Part shown: in pieces, positions 2,981-59,791 of the stretch
Numbering within the stretch: the first letter of the stretch is position 1
How the letters are laid out: every line of letters starts with the position of its first letter
IMG/VR virus record: IMGVR_UViG_3300002144_000477
Coordinates: 1-64,000 of that record
Direction: 5' to 3' (one strand)
Length of the DNA: 64,000 nt
DNA from: a virus
Notes under the pieces: generated by a model
Told to the model about the DNA's origin: nothing
The model's database searches: none
The model's input: the letters and a program-made list of their open reading frames with translations, nothing else
Position numbers and translations under genes: made by a program

Positions 2981-3065
2981 TGGTGCGAGTACCCGGAGTC
3001 GAACCGGGACACCTTACGGCGAGAGATTTTAAGTCTCTTGTGTCTACCTATTTCACCATACTCGC
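2981..3065 (-). tRNA. tRNA-Leu(TAA)
   Basis: GCGAGTA acceptor, AGAGA-CT TAA AA-TCTCT anticodon arm, long variable arm, GGTTCGACTCC T-arm, encoded CCA. Confidence 0.95.
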
Positions 3066-3073
3066 AATTTAGT

Positions 3074-3150
<77 letters not shown>

Positions 3151-3174
3151 ATACATTTCTTAACGTATGCATCT

Positions 3175-3203
3175 ATTATAGCACTAACTGTAGAGTTGAG
3201 CAA
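3175..3203 (-). promoter_or_regulatory. sigma70-type promoter for tRNA-Arg/Leu
   Basis: TTGCTC-N17-TATAAT just upstream of tRNA-Arg. Confidence 0.6.
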
Positions 3204-3231
3204 GCATTTTTTACACCTTTTGGTAAAAACC

Positions 3232-3426
3232 TTATTTTGTTTCTTTCGAAGTGTCCGCAGTATCATCCGCTACGTCTGGTGGGAATACCAACTTAGCCGA
3301 CCCAATTGTTCCGGGCATGGGAATCGATTCTTTTTTCTTTCCGAAAGTTGCTTCCCAATTGTCGTTAAATTGCGATTGACTTACACTATAAGGTCGTGGA
3401 CTTGATCCTTTACCACCGGCTGACAT
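3232..3426 (-). CDS. Small hypothetical phage protein
   Basis: 64 aa, GKGSxPRP...NW..TFGK; packed in operon. Confidence 0.65.
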   Translation of the reverse strand: MSAGGKGSSPRPYSVSQSQFNDNWEATFGKKKESIPMPGTIGSAKLVFPPDVADDTADTSKETK

Positions 3427-3429
3427 AAT

Positions 3430-3597
3430 TTAATTCCGTTCTTTTTCACGTCTAGCTGGCATTTCGCCAGCTAATTGAGCTTGAATCATTGCTCGTTTAA
3501 AACTATTTCGTTGCTCCGCACTAGCACCTTTCATTAAGGCTATAATACGTTTTGTTGTTTTACTCAACTTAAATGTTTTAGTTGGTTTGATATCCAT
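3430..3597 (-). CDS. Small basic hypothetical protein
   Basis: MDIKPTKTFKLSKTTKR...; between tRNA-Ser and the next ORF; start approximate. Confidence 0.6.
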   Translation of the reverse strand: MDIKPTKTFKLSKTTKRIIALMKGASAEQRNSFKRAMIQAQLAGEMPARREKERN

Positions 3598-3618
3598 TAT
3601 ATAATCTTTCAATAAATT

Positions 3619-3710
3619 TGGCGGAACGGGTGAGATTCGAACTCACGGGGCGCTTTAACACACCCGACTCCTTAGCAAGGAGCTGCCTTCGGCCACTCAG
3701 CCACCGTTCC
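3619..3710 (-). tRNA. tRNA-Ser(GCT)
   Basis: GGAACGG acceptor, GCTCC-TT GCT AA-GGAGT anticodon arm, long variable arm, G73 discriminator, encoded CCA. Confidence 0.93.
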
Positions 3711-54780: not shown

Positions 54781-55650
54781 ATGGAAACCCAAAACATGCA
54801 ACAAATGCCAATTAATCCGCTGACTGGACATTTCAGACAGCCTAAGATTTCTTTAACTTTGCCCTCAGGCGGTAAATGGTGGGGCGACGGTGCATTAGAT
54901 TTGCCAGCTAACGGTGAATTGCCTATCTATGCAATGACTGCAAAAGACGAAATACAACTTAGAACACCTGATTCTCTGTTAAACGGTACTAGTTTAGTTA
55001 ACGTAATACAAAGCTGTTGCCCGAGTATCAAGGATGCGTGGCAAATGCCCAGTGTTGATGTAGATGCTATTTTAATTGCAATACGTATTGCCAGCTTCGG
55101 CGATAGCATGGATGTTAACACATCGTGTCCAAAATGCCAGGAAGAAGCCACATTTGGCGTTCCGCTCGGGAAGAAGTTAGCAGAAATACAGATTGGCGAT
55201 TATGATCAGGAAATAGAATACCAGGATTTAAAGTTTAAACTAATACCACAACAGTATTACAATGTAAACAGATTGAATCAAGTGAGATTCCAAGAAGAAC
55301 GTATTAGCATGCTTATTGTTGATGCTACTATGCCCGAAGATGAAAAAGGAAAACAGTTGCAAGAAAGTTTCCAGCGTCTAGTTGATCTGGGATTAGAAAA
55401 CGTAACCGAAAGCACCGAATATGTGCAAATGGCTGACGGTACTAAAGTACGTAACAAACATCACATCTTAGAATTTTTTACTAATTCTCCAGGGTCCGCG
55501 ATGAAAGTAGTAAACGATAGGTTAAACAAGTTAGCAGAAGCCAGCAGACCAGCACCACTTAAACTTAAATGCAAACATTGCGAAACTGTATACGAAAACT
55601 CATTGGAATTCGATTACACAAGTTTTTTCGATCAAGCCTCCTCCAGTTAA
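54781..55650 (+). CDS. gp26: Baseplate hub assembly protein (gp26-like)
   Basis: LPSGG, MTAKDE, D.DAILIAIRIAS.G, CPKC, C-terminal CKHC...SFF. Confidence 0.8.
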   Translation: METQNMQQMPINPLTGHFRQPKISLTLPSGGKWWGDGALDLPANGELPIYAMTAKDEIQLRTPDSLLNGTSLVNVIQSCCPSIKDAWQMPSVDVDAILIAIRIASFGDSMDVNTSCPKCQEEATFGVPLGKKLAEIQIGDYDQEIEYQDLKFKLIPQQYYNVNRLNQVRFQEERISMLIVDATMPEDEKGKQLQESFQRLVDLGLENVTESTEYVQMADGTKVRNKHHILEFFTNSPGSAMKVVNDRLNKLAEASRPAPLKLKCKHCETVYENSLEFDYTSFFDQASSS

Positions 55651-55862
55651 AGACTGAAGACGATGTAGTTAAGTTCCTTAGGGGATTTGACAAACAGGTG
55701 GAGGCTATAAAAGAAGAATTATTTAGATTATGTTGGTATATGCGTGGCGGGGTAACTTACAGCGAAGCAATGTATCTAGATCAGGAAGAACGTAAAATCA
55801 TTGGACGAATTATTGATAGTAACTTAGAAGTAACTAAAACAAGTAGAATGCCATTCTTTTAA
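55623..55862 (+). CDS. gp51-like hub assembly domain, probably reached by -1 frameshift from gp26
   Basis: LCWYMRGGVTYSEAM.L..EER..I; -1 frame relative to gp26; entered at T TTT TTC. Confidence 0.65.
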   Translation, partial: FFRSSLLQLKTEDDVVKFLRGFDKQVEAIKEELFRLCWYMRGGVTYSEAMYLDQEERKIIGRIIDSNLEVTKTSRMPFF

Positions 55863-55880
55863 ATGTTGCTTACTATTTAA

Positions 55881-56360
55881 AGTTCTCTAGCGAGAACTGT
55901 TTACTTCACTAACGTTCGTAAACTTTTTTATTTTCTTAATTAAGTATCATCCAGATTAAGCAGTCACACTTTGCCCTTGCGGGGCAAAGATAAAATTGCG
56001 CATCATCCGAGTAGCACAGTCACTAGCGTTCGAACTATAATGCTACATAAATGTTACATTAACTGGGTTAACGCTATCTTTATGCTACATTGCGTAGGCG
56101 GTTGTCCTGTACCTACTCATTCTGTCTTTATACAACGGCAGCTAATATAATATACGCTAACATACTATACTAACCTGCTACATCACTGTAGCGTCTTTTT
56201 AGCCTTTTAAATTCTTTTCAAACAATCAAACCGCGGCATTTAAGCGATCGTCGTCCTGTTAAGGATAGTGATTGAGTGCTCCAATCAGCGTAGAGTCTTA
56301 CATCCCTGTGATCCGGTTGATCCAGGTTTAGTGCATACGAGGTTAGCCTATGCTAGCTTA
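55881..56360 (-). ncRNA. Candidate large structured non-coding RNA
   Basis: ~480 nt without an ORF in a gene-dense genome; at least 9 hairpins; G-U pairs and GNRA loops (GTGA, GCAA) only on the - strand; boundaries approximate. Confidence 0.6.
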
Positions 56361-56367
56361 TACTGAA

Positions 56368-56464
56368 TTAAATTTTGTTTATAATGTGGGAGCCATGGAC
56401 ACGGACTTGTTACAAGTCCGTTGTGGTATTCGTTTGATTTCAGAACTTTGCAAGCAAATTGTTC
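56368..56464 (-). pseudogene. Frameshifted 3' remnant of a second GIY-YIG-like allele
   Basis: EQFACKVLKSNEYHNGLV(+1)QVRVHGSHIINKI* aligns to EQFKHRVLESDDYYNGHIRVRIHHRQNII of the upstream gene. Confidence 0.75.
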
Positions 56465-56508
56465 TATGTGTAGCCGATCTTATATGCCCAAGTACTTGCC
56501 TTGAAACT

Positions 56509-56955
56509 TTAGTCTTTGTTGGCCTCTGATATTATATTTTGTCTATGATGAATGCGCACCCTGATATGACCGTTGTAGTAGTCATCGGACTCAAGTACGC
56601 GATGCTTAAATTGTTCTCTTGCTTCAACGTAACTACACTCTGCCTTGCTGTAACAATAGTAAAGTATTTCACGTTTAAAGTGTTCTGTGCCTAGTAGTTC
56701 AATGTCTTTTGATAGTGCATCGCTTGAGCCATAATATGTAAGCCAGTCGCTGTCGACTTGGTCTTTGATTCGCTTTTTCTTTTTGGTGCCGTTTTTGAGT
56801 GTAACTATACGATATTTGATTCGAGAAAACTTTGCTAATTTTTTGCCTATGTATTTTTTGTTTGTTTGTGTGTTTGTGATGAGATATACGAAGCCAATGG
56901 AGTCTTCTGGTAAAGTATTAACAATTTCGTTTTTGTATAGCCATGATGTTGTCAT
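56509..56955 (-). CDS. GIY-YIG-like endonuclease
   Basis: GFVYLITN....KKYIGKK, YYGSS, FKREIL, E...Q, YYN; start MTTSW. Confidence 0.8.
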   Translation of the reverse strand: MTTSWLYKNEIVNTLPEDSIGFVYLITNTQTNKKYIGKKLAKFSRIKYRIVTLKNGTKKKKRIKDQVDSDWLTYYGSSDALSKDIELLGTEHFKREILYYCYSKAECSYVEAREQFKHRVLESDDYYNGHIRVRIHHRQNIISEANKD

Positions 56956-56963
56956 TTGTAGTA

Positions 56964-57446
56964 TTATATAGTGTCTCCGTAGATCCAACCTAATCTTTCT
57001 AACTTATGGATCCACGTAAATGCAGGTAATCGAATCGGTAAGTGCCAACGTTCGTTGTAACATACATAGTTACCAAACATTGGGTCAATGGCAGCCGCTG
57101 GAGACCCATCCGGGTACCTGCACCAATGGTTACAGCGAATCTGTTGCATAATGCTGTCGAGTGCAAATCCTTCGACAGTTATGTTGTCAATGGACACTGC
57201 TTTATCGTTGACTATTTCTCCGTTAACAACAACAGTGTCGCCGGGCTTCTTATTTAACAGCGTTACACCCAATCCGTACTCATACCCGTATTTTCCTTCT
57301 AGAGTAAAATTCATAGTAACAGTTTCGTTTAATATACCTTCCCATAGAATTTCATCACCCCAGTCAACTTGTACTTTCGGTGGGTCGTCGCTGTGAAACA
57401 CAGGACGTAGTGTTATTGCTACTTGGGTATTAATTACTGTATCCAT
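56964..57446 (-). CDS. Hypothetical protein
   Basis: 160 aa, coupled to the radical SAM gene; PAFTWIH...GWIY. Confidence 0.6.
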   Translation of the reverse strand: MDTVINTQVAITLRPVFHSDDPPKVQVDWGDEILWEGILNETVTMNFTLEGKYGYEYGLGVTLLNKKPGDTVVVNGEIVNDKAVSIDNITVEGFALDSIMQQIRCNHWCRYPDGSPAAAIDPMFGNYVCYNERWHLPIRLPAFTWIHKLERLGWIYGDTI

Positions 57447-58722
57447 GTTCTTTTAACCATCCGTTGTATTCTGGGATAAAATCTAAAATGCTTGTACCGT
57501 GAAAGCGATCCTGCTCGGCTAAGCGTTTTGCTGTTTCTGCTCTGCGTTCTAGTGCATTCTCAGGTTCTGCACGGTCTAAGTGCCTGGCTAAAGAAAGCGC
57601 CTCCTCGCGGAGAGATAACTCAATATTATTTGGGTTTTTAGTGTTATTAAAGCGGTTTTCAGTCACTGTAATGCCGTCTGCAAACTCCTGTAGCTTACGT
57701 ATTGCAACACGTTTATGTGCTTCGGGTAGTAGCTCTGCTAGCAACCAATTTGGTCTACTAGGGTAACTAGCATCAACAGGAATACGTCGTTTTAACGCTT
57801 CTTTTAATATAGTTGTGTACCTACCTACACTAAGCAACGTGGGCACAGTTCTAAACGTTAATGTGGCAAATGCAAGTTCTTTTTGCATAGTATCAACATT
57901 CTTAAGGATGTCTTCGATCTTACTCCCGGCACGAATATAGTTATTACTACTGTCGGCAGTTTCGATACTAATGCCAATTTCTACACGTTTAAACTGTTTA
58001 AATTGTGCTTTAAATTCCGTGTAATCATGTGTGCCATTAGTAGTAAAACTCAAGTTCAACCAATTCATTTTGTGTTCGCTAAACAAATTAATTAAGTCAG
58101 CAAACTCGTCGATTAAATGTGGTTCCCCGCCGATTAGATGTACAACACGAATGTGCTGGTAGTTATTATCAAACCAATCGCGGAAATTTTGATAGGCTAC
58201 TGCATCACGTACCCAAGGTGTTTGTTTCCAATCACTAGCAATCCAGCCTGCATGTTTTTGGAAACTAGCAATACGGCTGCTTGCATCAGGACTGCACATA
58301 CGGCAAGCCAAATTACAAGTATTACCAATGTTTAAATGCAAACTGCGAATTTTGCTTTCTGTAACTTCAGTAAACAGTTCGCGATGTGGACTCTGCTCAA
58401 AACTTCGATCAAACGCATCTTTAGTAAAGATAACACTTTTTAAGTTTTCTTTTTGCCTAGCACTGGTATATCCAGCGGCATCTTTCATTTGACACATCTT
58501 GCACATTGGGTCAACTGTGTCGCCTAATTTAATTCGACGCTTTTCTTGCATGCGAGTACTGTTCCAATACTCGTCAATGGTCATGTTTTTAATGTTCCAT
58601 TTGGCACCGTCGGGTGTGCCCATTATTTTGTCATTCTGACAGCCGCAGAGATCAAAGCTACCATCATTGTTAATGTTAAGCTCGAACCAGGGTATGTTAC
58701 AAAAAATATCTTTATTAGGCAT
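57430..58722 (-). CDS. Radical SAM protein with N-terminal Cys-rich (SPASM/twitch-like) domain
   Basis: CNLACRMC, GGEP, TTNGT; FCNIPW...LC...CKMC N-terminus. Confidence 0.88.
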   Translation of the reverse strand: MPNKDIFCNIPWFELNINNDGSFDLCGCQNDKIMGTPDGAKWNIKNMTIDEYWNSTRMQEKRRIKLGDTVDPMCKMCQMKDAAGYTSARQKENLKSVIFTKDAFDRSFEQSPHRELFTEVTESKIRSLHLNIGNTCNLACRMCSPDASSRIASFQKHAGWIASDWKQTPWVRDAVAYQNFRDWFDNNYQHIRVVHLIGGEPHLIDEFADLINLFSEHKMNWLNLSFTTNGTHDYTEFKAQFKQFKRVEIGISIETADSSNNYIRAGSKIEDILKNVDTMQKELAFATLTFRTVPTLLSVGRYTTILKEALKRRIPVDASYPSRPNWLLAELLPEAHKRVAIRKLQEFADGITVTENRFNNTKNPNNIELSLREEALSLARHLDRAEPENALERRAETAKRLAEQDRFHGTSILDFIPEYNGWLKEHGYSN

Positions 58723-59791
58723 TATAGCACTTCAGTTTACAAATTTCTAAGGGCATAAGTGCCCAGGTAGTTTCTAGCTCTTCCCAAATTGGGTCAGCTA
58801 TGATATCGTTAATATTACGAGTACGAACATTTAGTTTATTGCGATGTTTGATAACAAAGCTATTGGGAATGTATCCGCTGTCAAACCACGCACAAGGGTA
58901 AAACAACCCCTCAACACTAATAAATGGGACTTGCACTCTGGTTTTACCTATACATTTTTGCCAACCCGTTGTACTGCGATCTTGTGGCTTAGCACGATGT
59001 ACAGCGTTAACTCGTACTTCGTGCATAGTGTTAACATTCTGCTGTCTCTTAGTAGTTAGCAACATTTTCTTCTTGCGGTAAATTTTTAAATTAATTGCAT
59101 CGTTAATCGTATCGGGTTCAAGGTAGTCGATTCCGTTTTCGTCTAAGTAGCGTTGGTCTATGCTACCAAACTTAGTGCTAGTGACAATTGTAAATTCGTC
59201 ACACCCGGTTAATCGAGCAACTTCTTCGATTCTGTGTTTATTGCTTTCGTTAAACTTAAACTCGATCATGCTCCAGCTAATAAGTGCTCGTGTGTCGGTA
59301 GTCTTACTGGCGACTAGCACACGGATACCATCCAATATGCTATCGTAGTCGCAGTTAACTCGATACATGCTGTTAGTTTGCTGGTTCCACCCGTCGACAC
59401 TAAAGGTAACTCGGTCGTACTCGTTTAGTACATTGCCTAGTCTGGCCCACCAATCTGGCTTCTTATAACTCCCATTGGTAACGATAGTTAACCCAAGTGC
59501 TGGATTAGATTGTTTAATATATTCTACAATTTCTAAAAAGTCAATTGCATATATCGGATCACCTTTATCCCCGCAGAATACAATGCGTTCAACTTGTGCT
59601 AGTACATCCGGCGGAAAGCTAGATTGGAATTGGCTAACAGAGTAGTCTAAATTTAAACTAGGATGCAAATCGTTTTTTAGTTCAGTGCGAGGGCACCTAG
59701 GGCATTTTAGTACACACCTACTACTTAATTCAATGTGTAACTCGCTAATGTTAAACAATGTCGATGTCGGTGTTGTAACTAGTGAATCCAT
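58715..59791 (-). CDS. Radical SAM protein with C-terminal SPASM/twitch-like domain
   Basis: CVLKCPRC, CGDKGDP, TNGS, FSVDG, YPCAW...CKLKC; true start may be the TTG at ~59758. Confidence 0.88.
   Translation of the reverse strand: MDSLVTTPTSTLFNISELHIELSSRCVLKCPRCPRTELKNDLHPSLNLDYSVSQFQSSFPPDVLAQVERIVFCGDKGDPIYAIDFLEIVEYIKQSNPALGLTIVTNGSYKKPDWWARLGNVLNEYDRVTFSVDGWNQQTNSMYRVNCDYDSILDGIRVLVASKTTDTRALISWSMIEFKFNESNKHRIEEVARLTGCDEFTIVTSTKFGSIDQRYLDENGIDYLEPDTINDAINLKIYRKKKMLLTTKRQQNVNTMHEVRVNAVHRAKPQDRSTTGWQKCIGKTRVQVPFISVEGLFYPCAWFDSGYIPNSFVIKHRNKLNVRTRNINDIIADPIWEELETTWALMPLEICKLKCYNA

What the first reader, a model, noticed from the sequence alone, without database searches (positions are those of the whole stretch)
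55881..56955. GIY-YIG-like nuclease gene followed by a ~500-nt ornate ncRNA candidate: possible nuclease-RNA module
Seen: this is the longest ORF-free stretch in the window. Read on the - strand it folds into successive hairpins at 56305-56326, 56177-56192 (GTGA loop), 56139-56177 (long G-U-rich stem), 56094-56116, 55969-55989 (GCAA loop), ~55899-55923 and 55881-55898. The G-U pairs and GNRA loops only work on the - strand, which is co-directional with the upstream GIY-YIG-like gene, and no clear terminator lies between them. It lacks tRNA, tmRNA, RNase P and group I/II hallmarks that I can recognise. Known: phages carry large RNAs of unknown function (GOLLD, ROOL), and nucleases pair with adjacent RNAs in OMEGA/HEARO systems. 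Inference: this is a large phage RNA, possibly forming an RNP with the GIY-YIG protein. An alternative is a structured replication origin at this convergent gene junction.
Basis: partly seen in the sequence, partly recalled or inferred. Interest (0 to 1): 0.9.

Follow-up and report, generated by a model that had tools for sequence, protein, structure and literature searches.

The report
Full-length Polynucleobacter-1 twin-box phage RNA
The gene-free stretch behind a small nuclease gene of this uncultured giant T4-like phage encodes a real, knotted non-coding RNA of about 420-490 bases; its first third is an orphan motif catalogued in 2010 (Rfam Polynucleobacter-1), its function is still unknown, and nothing found here shows that it guides the nuclease.

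Summary
Window 55863-56508 is the longest stretch without an ORF of 60 aa or more.

The RNA is not unrecognised. Window 56220-56358 (-) matches Rfam RF01718, Polynucleobacter-1 RNA, at 105.6 bits (cut-off 37). The RNA runs on about 340 nt beyond that model, to about 55881.

A profile of the region finds it in 186 of the loci fetched. On 30 diverse copies, 95% of cells pair and 52 of 75 pairs change on both sides; no shuffle of 500 reached this. There are three pseudoknots.

A 7-base word (GGAUGAU here) occurs twice. The two copies are identical within each RNA but differ between phages. No nucleic-acid partner for the word was found.

A small nuclease gene lies upstream in 99 of 100 phage loci: GIY-YIG in 90, an unrelated PD-(D/E)XK in 9. 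Bacterial copies have no nuclease nearby, and the nuclease family occurs in cultured phages without the RNA. A nuclease-RNA particle is therefore possible but unsupported.

This scan has already reported the same RNA from many other genomes. Its function is unknown.

The parts
56509..56955 (-). Small GIY-YIG nuclease gene (148 aa, catalytic domain only)
   Evidence: PF19835 E 2.8e-31 over residues 5-131. phrog_447 E 8e-36. Motif residues Y24, Y35, G37, R95, E111 and N128 are invariant in 31 homologues. A homologue lies upstream of the RNA in 90 of 100 loci.
56368..56508 (-). Decayed 3' end of a displaced GIY-YIG allele (scar) between the intact gene and the RNA
   Evidence: Translations give HIEQFACKVLKSNEYHNG in one frame and QVRVHGSHI-stop in another. 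These match the family's C-terminal consensus. At the DNA level the stretch aligns to the 3' coding end of other loci.
56220..56358 (-). 5' domain, the Rfam Polynucleobacter-1 motif (helices PK0, P1, P2, P3, P4, P4a, P4b)
   Evidence: RF01718 at 105.6 bits against a cut-off of 37, model 1-141 of 141. Helices 1-7 are 94-100% paired, with changes on both sides.
56141..56193 (-). Hairpin Pa (GUGA loop, 56192-56177) and long hairpin Pb (56174-56141); the Pb loop 56158-56154 is the 5' strand of pseudoknot PK1
   Evidence: Pa has 5 of 6 pairs and Pb 12 of 12 pairs with changes on both sides (helices 8 and 9).
56024..56136 (-). Central junction: PK2 (56136-56132 with Pd loop 56105-56101), Pc (56122-56119 with 56035-56032), Pd (56114-56111 with 56099-56096), an expansion hairpin of about 60 nt (56095-56036) and the PK1 3' strand (56029-56025)
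   Evidence: PK1 is 99.3% paired with 5 of 5 double changes. PK2 is 98% paired, Pc 97.5% and Pd 100% (helices 10-13). The expansion is present in only some relatives.
56002..56023 (-). Module M1: GUGAC, then 8 variable bases, then ACUC and twin box GGAUGAU (56008-56002)
   Evidence: Mutual information shows parallel, non-Watson-Crick covariation with M2 at an offset of 50 columns. The box is identical to that of M2 in about 144 of 145 RNAs.
55969..55989 (-). Hairpin He (CUUUGCCC / GGGCAAAG) between the two modules
   Evidence: 96.3% paired, with 4 of 8 pairs changed on both sides (helix 14).
55946..55967 (-). Module M2: GUGAC, then 8 variable bases, then AUCU and twin box GGAUGAU (55952-55946)
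55881..55923 (-). Two 3' hairpins: 55923-55899 (GA / GAA internal loop, GNNA loop, family motif UGAGCG-NNAG-CGAAA) and 55898-55881 (terminator-like)
   Evidence: Both are present, with changing stems, in phage, divergent-phage and bacterial copies, judged by eye. The last hairpin also scores as a plus-strand terminator for the convergent genes.
54781..55862 (+). Convergent baseplate genes (PF12322 T4_baseplate, 289 aa, and a 97-aa ORF) that bound the RNA on its 3' side
   Evidence: PF12322 E 1.2e-13. Homologues lie convergent downstream of the RNA in about 70 loci.

Best explanation
Window about 56362 to about 55881 (minus strand) encodes a full-length member of the Polynucleobacter-1 RNA family (RF01718).

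Shown:
- It is a multi-pseudoknotted non-coding RNA of about 420 nt, or about 480 nt with its two 3' hairpins and a lineage-specific 60-nt expansion.
- It is conserved in many uncultured T4-like phage contigs and in freshwater Burkholderiales genomes.
- It starts at the stop codon of whichever gene lies upstream, with no promoter-like or terminator-like site in between.
- It carries one 7-base word twice. The two copies stay identical within an RNA and differ between elements.

Inferred:
- It is made as the 3' extension of the nuclease transcript and ends at the hairpins at 55923-55881.
- It acts in trans as a folded RNA that shows two copies of an element-specific word to a two-fold reader, most likely a protein that binds as a pair. 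No nucleic-acid partner could be found.
- The neighbouring nuclease is a neighbour, not an RNA-guided enzyme. It is either a homing-type gene that sits beside this highly conserved RNA gene, or an ordinary phage nuclease that shares its transcript.

My odds: about 0.95 that the RNA is real and belongs to the family, about 0.3 for the two-fold protein reader, and about 0.45 for the nuclease as neighbour or homing gene.
For: Identity: RF01718 at 105.6 bits against a cut-off of 37, over the full model.

A profile of the region found 186 loci; 163 were full length and 106 were distinct at under 95% identity.

Structure: on 30 diverse sequences 95.3% of cells pair and 52 of 75 pairs change on both sides, with 0 of 500 shuffles as high. 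Partners slid by 1-3 columns give 34-40%. G-U greatly exceeds A-C.

Twin boxes:
- Parallel covariation between the two boxes.
- Nine word types in phages and five in bacteria.
- Near-identical island copies differ by the same A-to-G change in both boxes.
- Two 95-98% complete phage genomes hold no other copy or complement of the 13-nt box.

Nuclease as neighbour:
- Either GIY-YIG (90 loci) or an unrelated PD-(D/E)XK (9 loci) fills the slot, never both.
- Unknown ORFs of about 270 aa are inserted exactly at the RNA's 5' edge.
- This window carries the scar of a displaced allele.
- Some phage pairs have nearly identical nuclease and RNA while the baseplate protein of 54781-55650 differs by 51-55%.
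- The nuclease family lies at other genome positions without the RNA in Melnitz, S-SRM01, P-SSM2 and a Variovorax phage.
- Bacterial copies have no nuclease nearby.
Against: - No expression data exist. The transcript ends are inferred.
- Nuclease occupancy of 99 in 100, with intact ORFs, is higher than usual for sporadic homing genes. The GIY-to-RNA order also persists in a deeply divergent clade whose 5' domain Rfam no longer recognises. Both points favour a functional tie.
- The nuclease has no DNA-binding domain beyond the catalytic core.
- Perfect identity of the two boxes is more typical of base pairing than of protein recognition. A partner of only 7 nt, or one encoded by the host, cannot be excluded.
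Confidence: 0.6

Rival explanations
1. The RNA is the specificity or scaffold subunit of a small DNA enzyme. In phages the enzyme would be the GIY-YIG or PD-(D/E)XK nuclease. In bacterial islands it would be the 188-aa tyrosine recombinase. The twin boxes would read a short core shared by two DNA sites, in the manner of OMEGA or bridge RNAs.
For: - A minimal DNA enzyme lies next to the RNA in three settings: GIY-YIG or PD-(D/E)XK directly upstream in 99 of 100 phage loci, and a catalytic-domain-only integrase (PF00589 over residues 6-176 of 188) downstream in about 20 bacterial loci.
- The nuclease lacks a DNA-binding domain.
- The adjacency survives deep divergence.
- The boxes are identical within an element and specific to it.
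Against: - The same nuclease family occurs without the RNA in cultured phages.
- Bacterial loci have no nuclease. The integrase is missing from several of them and its distance varies from 750 to 1430 nt.
- Only 9 phage and 5 bacterial word types were seen, mostly purine swaps, which is far too few for guides.
- No target, att-like copy or complement was found within 1.5 kb, within 8 kb of island flank, or in whole phage genomes.
- Word type does not follow the nuclease type.
Confidence: 0.12
2. The RNA is a self-acting or self-assembling large RNA, either a ribozyme or a ROOL/GOLLD-like multimer. The twin boxes would be symmetric contact or substrate sites.
For: Its size, three pseudoknots and invariant single-stranded junctions resemble ribozymes and ornate large RNAs. 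Like GOLLD and ROOL it is carried by phages (Weinberg 2010, PMC2864571).
Against: - No Rfam ribozyme, GOLLD or ROOL match, even at E up to 1.
- The boxes are not self-complementary and not complementary to each other, so Watson-Crick multimer contacts through them are not possible.
- No cleavage-site signature is known.
Confidence: 0.1
3. The region is a cis-acting 3' UTR element that stabilises or regulates the nuclease mRNA.
For: The RNA starts 0-30 nt after the stop codon of the upstream gene in nearly all loci, with no terminator between them.
Against: - The same RNA follows unrelated genes (PD-(D/E)XK, unknown ORFs of about 270 aa).
- In bacteria it follows no gene at all, because its upstream neighbour is divergent.
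- 420 nt with three pseudoknots is far more than a stabiliser needs.
Confidence: 0.08
4. The region works at the DNA level, or as a pre-primer for replication. It would be an origin with two iteron-like repeats and an A/T-rich tract, or a ColE1 RNA II-like structured primer at a convergent junction.
For: Direct repeats that are identical within a replicon and differ between replicons are what iterons look like. An A-rich tract follows M2.
Against: - Helices co-vary with G-U pairs on one strand only.
- Only two repeats exist, and none elsewhere in complete genomes.
- The A-rich tract is only 10-30 nt and varies in length.
- No initiator gene is linked.
Confidence: 0.06

Closest known systems
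Polynucleobacter-1 RNA motif (Rfam RF01718; Weinberg et al. 2010, Genome Biol 11:R31, PMC2864571)
   Same: Window 56220-56358 matches the whole 141-position model at 105.6 bits. The setting is the one described in 2010, downstream of genes like PSSM2_218, which is this GIY-YIG family. The authors' raw alignment already carries a 3' tail with hairpins and a pseudoknot that matches this window.
   Different: - Rfam models only the first third.
- In 2010 the motif was reported as not detected in any sequenced purified phage. Here it lies in T4-like viral contigs of up to 354 kb.
- The motif's description as read here does not mention the twin boxes, PK2, the two 3' hairpins, the alternation of two nuclease folds, or a sister clade with another 5' domain.
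OMEGA / HEARO RNAs (IscB, TnpB) and IS110 bridge RNAs
   Same: A large structured RNA lies next to a small DNA enzyme on a mobile genome. The bridge RNA has two modules that share a core.
   Different: The enzymes are different (GIY-YIG, PD-(D/E)XK or a tyrosine recombinase, not RuvC/HNH or a DEDD recombinase). No guide-target match was found. There are very few word types. The nuclease family works without the RNA elsewhere.
Free-standing homing endonucleases of T4-type phages next to conserved genes (Seg and Mob proteins; for example SegB in the T4 tRNA gene cluster; from general knowledge)
   Same: A GIY-YIG gene lies beside a highly conserved RNA gene. Unrelated nuclease families replace each other in one slot. 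There are scars and mosaic ancestry.
   Different: The slot is occupied in nearly all loci. The protein has no DNA-binding domain. No empty sites were seen.
GOLLD, ROOL and other large orphan RNAs of phages and prophages
   Same: Large, ornate, phage-borne, and of unknown function.
   Different: No sequence or structure match. Twin boxes are not a reported feature of those RNAs.
nut-site boxB hairpins of lambdoid phages (from general knowledge)
   Same: Two copies of one short RNA word, identical within a phage and different between phages, read by a phage-specific protein. This is an analogy for how the twin boxes might work.
   Different: Here the boxes lie in one RNA 56 nt apart. No closing stem is supported. 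No reader is known.

Membership tests
Rfam RF01718 Polynucleobacter-1 RNA | Covariance-model score at or above the curated gathering score, over the whole model | tested here: met
   105.6 bits against 37, E 2e-23, positions 1-141 of 141.
Rfam RF01718 Polynucleobacter-1 RNA | Helices of the motif kept by compensatory changes in relatives | tested here: met
   Helices 1-7 are 94-100% paired and each has at least one pair changed on both sides.
Rfam RF01718 Polynucleobacter-1 RNA | Lies downstream of a gene of the GOS11034 / PSSM2_218 family (Weinberg 2010, supplementary text) | tested here: met
   The upstream protein hits PSSM2_218 of P-SSM2 by tblastn. A homologue lies upstream in 90 of 100 loci.
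Rfam RF01718 Polynucleobacter-1 RNA | 3' tail with hairpins and a pseudoknot, as in the authors' full alignment | tested here: met
   The tail rows of the Stockholm file match window 56220 to about 55946. PK1 is 99.3% paired with 5 of 5 double changes.
GIY-YIG nuclease superfamily (PF19835 SegE_GIY-YIG) | Profile match and conserved GIY / YIG, Arg, Glu and Asn motif residues | tested here: met
   E 2.8e-31. Y24, Y35, G37, R95, E111 and N128 are invariant in 31 homologues. Assigning these residues to catalytic roles is inference.
Seg-type free-standing homing endonuclease | C-terminal DNA-binding domain after the catalytic domain | tested here: not met
   The protein is 148 aa and the Pfam domain covers residues 5-131, with no second domain.
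Seg-type free-standing homing endonuclease | Sporadic presence, with empty sites in close relatives | tested here: not met
   A nuclease gene is present in 99 of 100 RNA loci. Replacement by another fold, scars and mosaic ancestry were seen.
Seg-type free-standing homing endonuclease | Cleavage of the nuclease-free allele near the insertion site | not testable with these tools
   Needs an enzyme assay.
RNA-guided nuclease systems (OMEGA / HEARO) | RuvC- or HNH-type effector (IscB, TnpB) | tested here: not met
   The neighbour is GIY-YIG or PD-(D/E)XK.
RNA-guided nuclease systems (OMEGA / HEARO) | A variable guide segment that matches target DNA | tested here: not met
   No complement of the boxes within 1.5 kb, in G000, or in two near-complete genomes. 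Only 9 word types were seen.
IS110-type bridge RNA | DEDD recombinase, and two loops whose guides match donor and target sites | tested here: not met
   No such recombinase. The island flanks held (8 kb) show no att-like copy of the core. Longer flanks were not examined.
Group I intron carrying a GIY-YIG gene | Intron core recognisable, and flanking exons of one host gene | tested here: not met
   No Rfam intron match at E up to 1. The upstream genes vary and the downstream genes are convergent.
GOLLD / ROOL / OLE large RNAs | Match to the family covariance model | tested here: not met
   Only RF01718 was reported at E up to 1 over 55400-57100.

The most novel reading that the evidence does not exclude
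The twin-box RNA is a portable specificity module for minimal DNA enzymes. It would recruit whichever catalytic-domain-only enzyme its element encodes (GIY-YIG or PD-(D/E)XK nuclease in phages, a small tyrosine recombinase in bacterial islands) to DNA sites that share the 7-base core written twice in the RNA. That would be a new class of RNA-directed DNA cutting or joining, unrelated to Cas, IscB/TnpB or IS110.
Probability: 0.07. Interest if true: 0.95.

Novelty: new member of a known kind. Interest (0 to 1): 0.5.

Why it matters
Polynucleobacter-1 has been an orphan entry since 2010. The only paper in the searched library that names it is its description.

Placing its full-length form in giant T4-like freshwater phages gives experimenters concrete handles on one of the larger unexplained bacterial and phage RNAs:
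- a fixed genomic address;
- three pseudoknots;
- a pair of words that change in step.

If the boxes turn out to be read by the neighbouring DNA enzymes, this would be a new kind of RNA-directed system. If not, it is still a widespread phage RNA whose reader is unknown.

For this scan the finding is a repeat. The same RNA has already been reported from many other genomes.

Tried and rejected
- blastn of the region and of the RNA against 50,697 phage records: no match.
- RF01718 in whole records of Melnitz, S-SRM01, P-SSM2 and a Variovorax phage, all of which carry the nuclease: none.
- Rfam on 16 baseplate-seeded loci (seeded with the 54781-55650 protein) that lack the 5' domain: no family at gathering score.
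- Pairing partner for the twin boxes. There was no exact complement within 1.5 kb. There was no enrichment or extended complement in the 170.9-kb own record. Two 95-98% complete genomes matched the 13-nt box pattern exactly only at the boxes themselves, and one-mismatch counts equalled the control.
- Idea that each box sits in a hairpin loop closed by its flanks: the best stems are no longer than with partners swapped between sequences (5.18 against 4.95 pairs, and 4.99 against 5.09). Rejected.
- Idea that the variable 8-mers of M1 and M2 pair with each other: this holds in some sequences only, by eye. Not supported.
- CsrA-type GGA sites, stop codons, anticodon-loop or T-loop complements, and promoter hexamers as readings of the word: each fits some word types and fails others. 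Rejected by inspection.
- DUF6641, the constant bacterial neighbour: the AlphaFold model has pLDDT 86, but there was no informative match by Foldseek (best E 0.26) or VIA-align (best Z 5.1). It is absent from the phage loci and from G000, and no paper in the searched library names it.
- Sequence search of the nuclease against solved structures: nothing significant.
- Link between word type and nuclease sequence: the closest pairs with different words are still only about 90% identical in protein, so the test is uninformative.
- Literature search for a nuclease-associated phage RNA: nothing relevant.

Full report
**What is there**

With ORFs of 60 aa or more on either strand, window 55863-56508 (646 nt) is the longest ORF-free stretch. 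On the minus strand it is preceded by a 148-aa gene at 56509-56955. Pfam places this gene in SegE_GIY-YIG (E 2.8e-31, residues 5-131) and PHROGs in phrog_447. On its 3' side it meets two convergent plus-strand genes: a T4_baseplate protein at 54781-55650 and a 97-aa ORF at 55569-55862. The window belongs to a 170,893-base IMG/VR virus record rated 49% complete.

**It has a name**

Rfam's covariance model RF01718, Polynucleobacter-1 RNA, matches 56220-56358 (-) at 105.6 bits against a gathering score of 37. The match covers all 141 model positions at E 2e-23. No other family reaches E 1 in 55400-57100.

The only paper in the searched library that names the motif is its 2010 description. Its supplement makes three relevant points:
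- Most examples lie downstream of genes of family GOS11034, which resemble PSSM2_218 of cyanophage P-SSM2.
- The 3' half is not always detected.
- None was found in a sequenced purified phage.

The window's nuclease hits PSSM2_218 by tblastn, so this is the same gene neighbourhood. The authors' raw alignment carries 3' tail rows and a pseudoknot annotation. These read the same as the window beyond the Rfam model, as far as the second box.

**Extent, spread and structure**

Five of the 15 loci checked with Rfam were chance matches; the other ten scored 93-120 bits. Seeding with the baseplate protein and the nuclease added more loci. A profile of the whole region then hit 186 loci. Of these, 163 were full length, 132 were unique and 106 were distinct at under 95% identity.

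Mutual information and pair counts define these helices:
- Rfam part: PK0, P1, P2, P3, P4, P4a and P4b.
- Beyond the Rfam part: Pa, Pb, Pc, Pd and He.
- Pseudoknots: PK0, PK1 (Pb loop with a strand about 125 nt downstream) and PK2 (GUUGU with the Pd loop).

On a MAFFT alignment of 30 diverse copies, 95.3% of 2141 cells pair and 52 of 75 pairs change on both sides. None of 500 shuffles reached any measure. Partners slid by 1-3 columns gave only 34-40% pairing. G-U cells outnumber A-C cells by about 700 to 49 in the supported helices, which fixes the molecule as RNA and the strand as minus.

The two 3' hairpins (55923-55899 and 55898-55881) recur with changing stems in phage, divergent-phage and bacterial copies, judged by eye. 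The last one also scores as a terminator for the convergent plus-strand genes.

The window's copy has an extra hairpin of about 60 nt at 56095-56036, which only some relatives share.

**Twin boxes**

Two modules flank hairpin He. Each consists of GUGAC, then 8 variable bases, then a fixed four bases and a 7-base word:
- M1 (56023-56002) ends in ACUC-GGAUGAU.
- M2 (55967-55946) ends in AUCU-GGAUGAU.

Across relatives the word takes nine forms in phages and five in bacteria. The two copies in one RNA are the same in about 144 of 145 cases; the exception, L067, differs at the last base. The columns co-vary in parallel, G with G and A with A, not as Watson-Crick pairs. In Polynucleobacter island copies that are otherwise nearly identical, one copy carries the same A-to-G change in both boxes.

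I looked for a pairing partner in three places and found none:
- within 1.5 kb of the RNA;
- in the whole own record;
- in two 95-98% complete phage genomes of 342 and 354 kb, where the 13-base box pattern matches exactly only at the two boxes and one-mismatch counts equal the control.

The flanks do not form closing stems that would place each box in a hairpin loop. A partner of only 7 nt, or one outside the phage, cannot be excluded.

**The nuclease link**

Among 100 true RNA loci with at least 700 nt upstream, 90 have the GIY-YIG homologue and 9 have a PD-(D/E)XK protein instead (PF24608). One has an unknown 116-aa ORF. In eight loci an unknown ORF of about 270 aa sits exactly between the nuclease and the RNA.

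Loci seeded with the baseplate protein of 54781-55650 that lack a recognisable 5' domain keep the same order: a GIY-YIG or PD-(D/E)XK gene, then 400-600 ORF-free bases, then the convergent baseplate genes. The ORF-free part keeps the 3' core (Pd, M1-He-M2 and the 3' hairpins) with a different 5' domain. The family is therefore wider than the Rfam model, and the neighbourhood is old.

Four points argue against an obligate partnership:
- The nuclease family (749 phage records) sits at other positions, without room for the RNA, in Melnitz, S-SRM01 and P-SSM2. RF01718 is absent from those genomes.
- Two unrelated folds fill the slot.
- This window carries the decayed last 40 or so codons of a displaced allele at 56368-56508.
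- Some phage pairs share nearly identical nuclease and RNA while the baseplate protein of 54781-55650 differs by 51-55%. Over all pairs the rank correlations of distances are 0.35 for nuclease against RNA and 0.11 for nuclease against that baseplate protein.

These are the marks of homing-type gene traffic beside a conserved target. Near-universal occupancy and the lack of a DNA-binding domain do not fit that picture well.

**Bacterial copies**

A second pattern found the RNA, with twin boxes, in Polynucleobacter, Limnohabitans, Comamonadaceae and other freshwater Burkholderiales. Its constant neighbour there is a divergent DUF6641 gene. A 188-aa tyrosine recombinase lies 750-1430 nt downstream in about 20 loci. 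There is no GIY-YIG or PD-(D/E)XK gene. DUF6641 folds with confidence (pLDDT 86) but matches no solved fold informatively. It is absent from the phage loci.

**Reading**

The RNA is real, large and knotted, and it is a member of a catalogued but unexplained family. My best account has three inferred steps:
- It is transcribed as the tail of the upstream gene's message.
- It acts in trans.
- It shows two copies of an element-specific word to a reader that binds as a pair, probably a protein.

On this account the nuclease is a neighbour rather than a guided enzyme. The RNP reading stays open at about one in eight, and its boldest form at well under one in ten. A cis-acting UTR, a ribozyme or cage, and an origin are less likely, for the reasons given under the rivals.

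**Standing in the scan**

Notes of this scan report the same RNA from many other genomes, with the same closest family and no function. Notes on this window had already flagged the duplicated module, the long-range pseudoknot and the scar. I checked all three and they hold.

Noticed in passing
window 56368-56508: Decayed copy of the last 40 or so codons of a GIY-YIG gene, split over two frames, lying between the intact gene's stop codon and the RNA. It suggests that a new allele replaced the old one without touching the RNA's 5' edge.
   Followed up: yes
L126, L130, L136, L138, L146, L153 (for example L136:4690-5290, minus strand): A sister clade of the RNA. It has the same 3' core (Pd, twin-box modules, He, 3' hairpins) behind a GIY-YIG or PD-(D/E)XK gene, but a different 5' domain that Rfam does not recognise.
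   Followed up: partly
L242-L290 (for example L272:3629-5640): Bacterial copies in Polynucleobacter, Limnohabitans and Comamonadaceae sit between a divergent DUF6641 gene and, often, a 188-aa catalytic-domain-only tyrosine recombinase. Some genomes hold two copies with different box words.
   Followed up: partly
L251 against L272, L287 and L271 (alignment A4, columns 349 and 421): Nearly identical island RNAs differ by the same A-to-G change in both twin boxes. One more change specific to that copy lies between M1 and He (column 380).
   Followed up: partly
window 56036-56095: An expansion hairpin of about 60 nt is inserted in the Pc/Pd junction of this copy. Only some relatives have one (for example L099, L165, L212, L077), and its sequence varies.
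   Followed up: no
L006, L059, L061, L064, L065, L092, L110, L111 (for example L110:3323-4138): Unknown ORFs of 265-340 aa, without Pfam or PHROG matches, are inserted exactly between the nuclease gene and the RNA's 5' edge.
   Followed up: no
window 57430-59791: Two adjacent radical SAM genes lie upstream on the minus strand. One also has a SPASM domain.
   Followed up: no
window 2984-3710: Three tRNA genes on the minus strand (Rfam RF00005).
   Followed up: no
window 55569-55650: The baseplate gene and the 97-aa ORF overlap by about 80 nt in different frames. Other notes of the scan propose a programmed frameshift here. Not examined.
   Followed up: no
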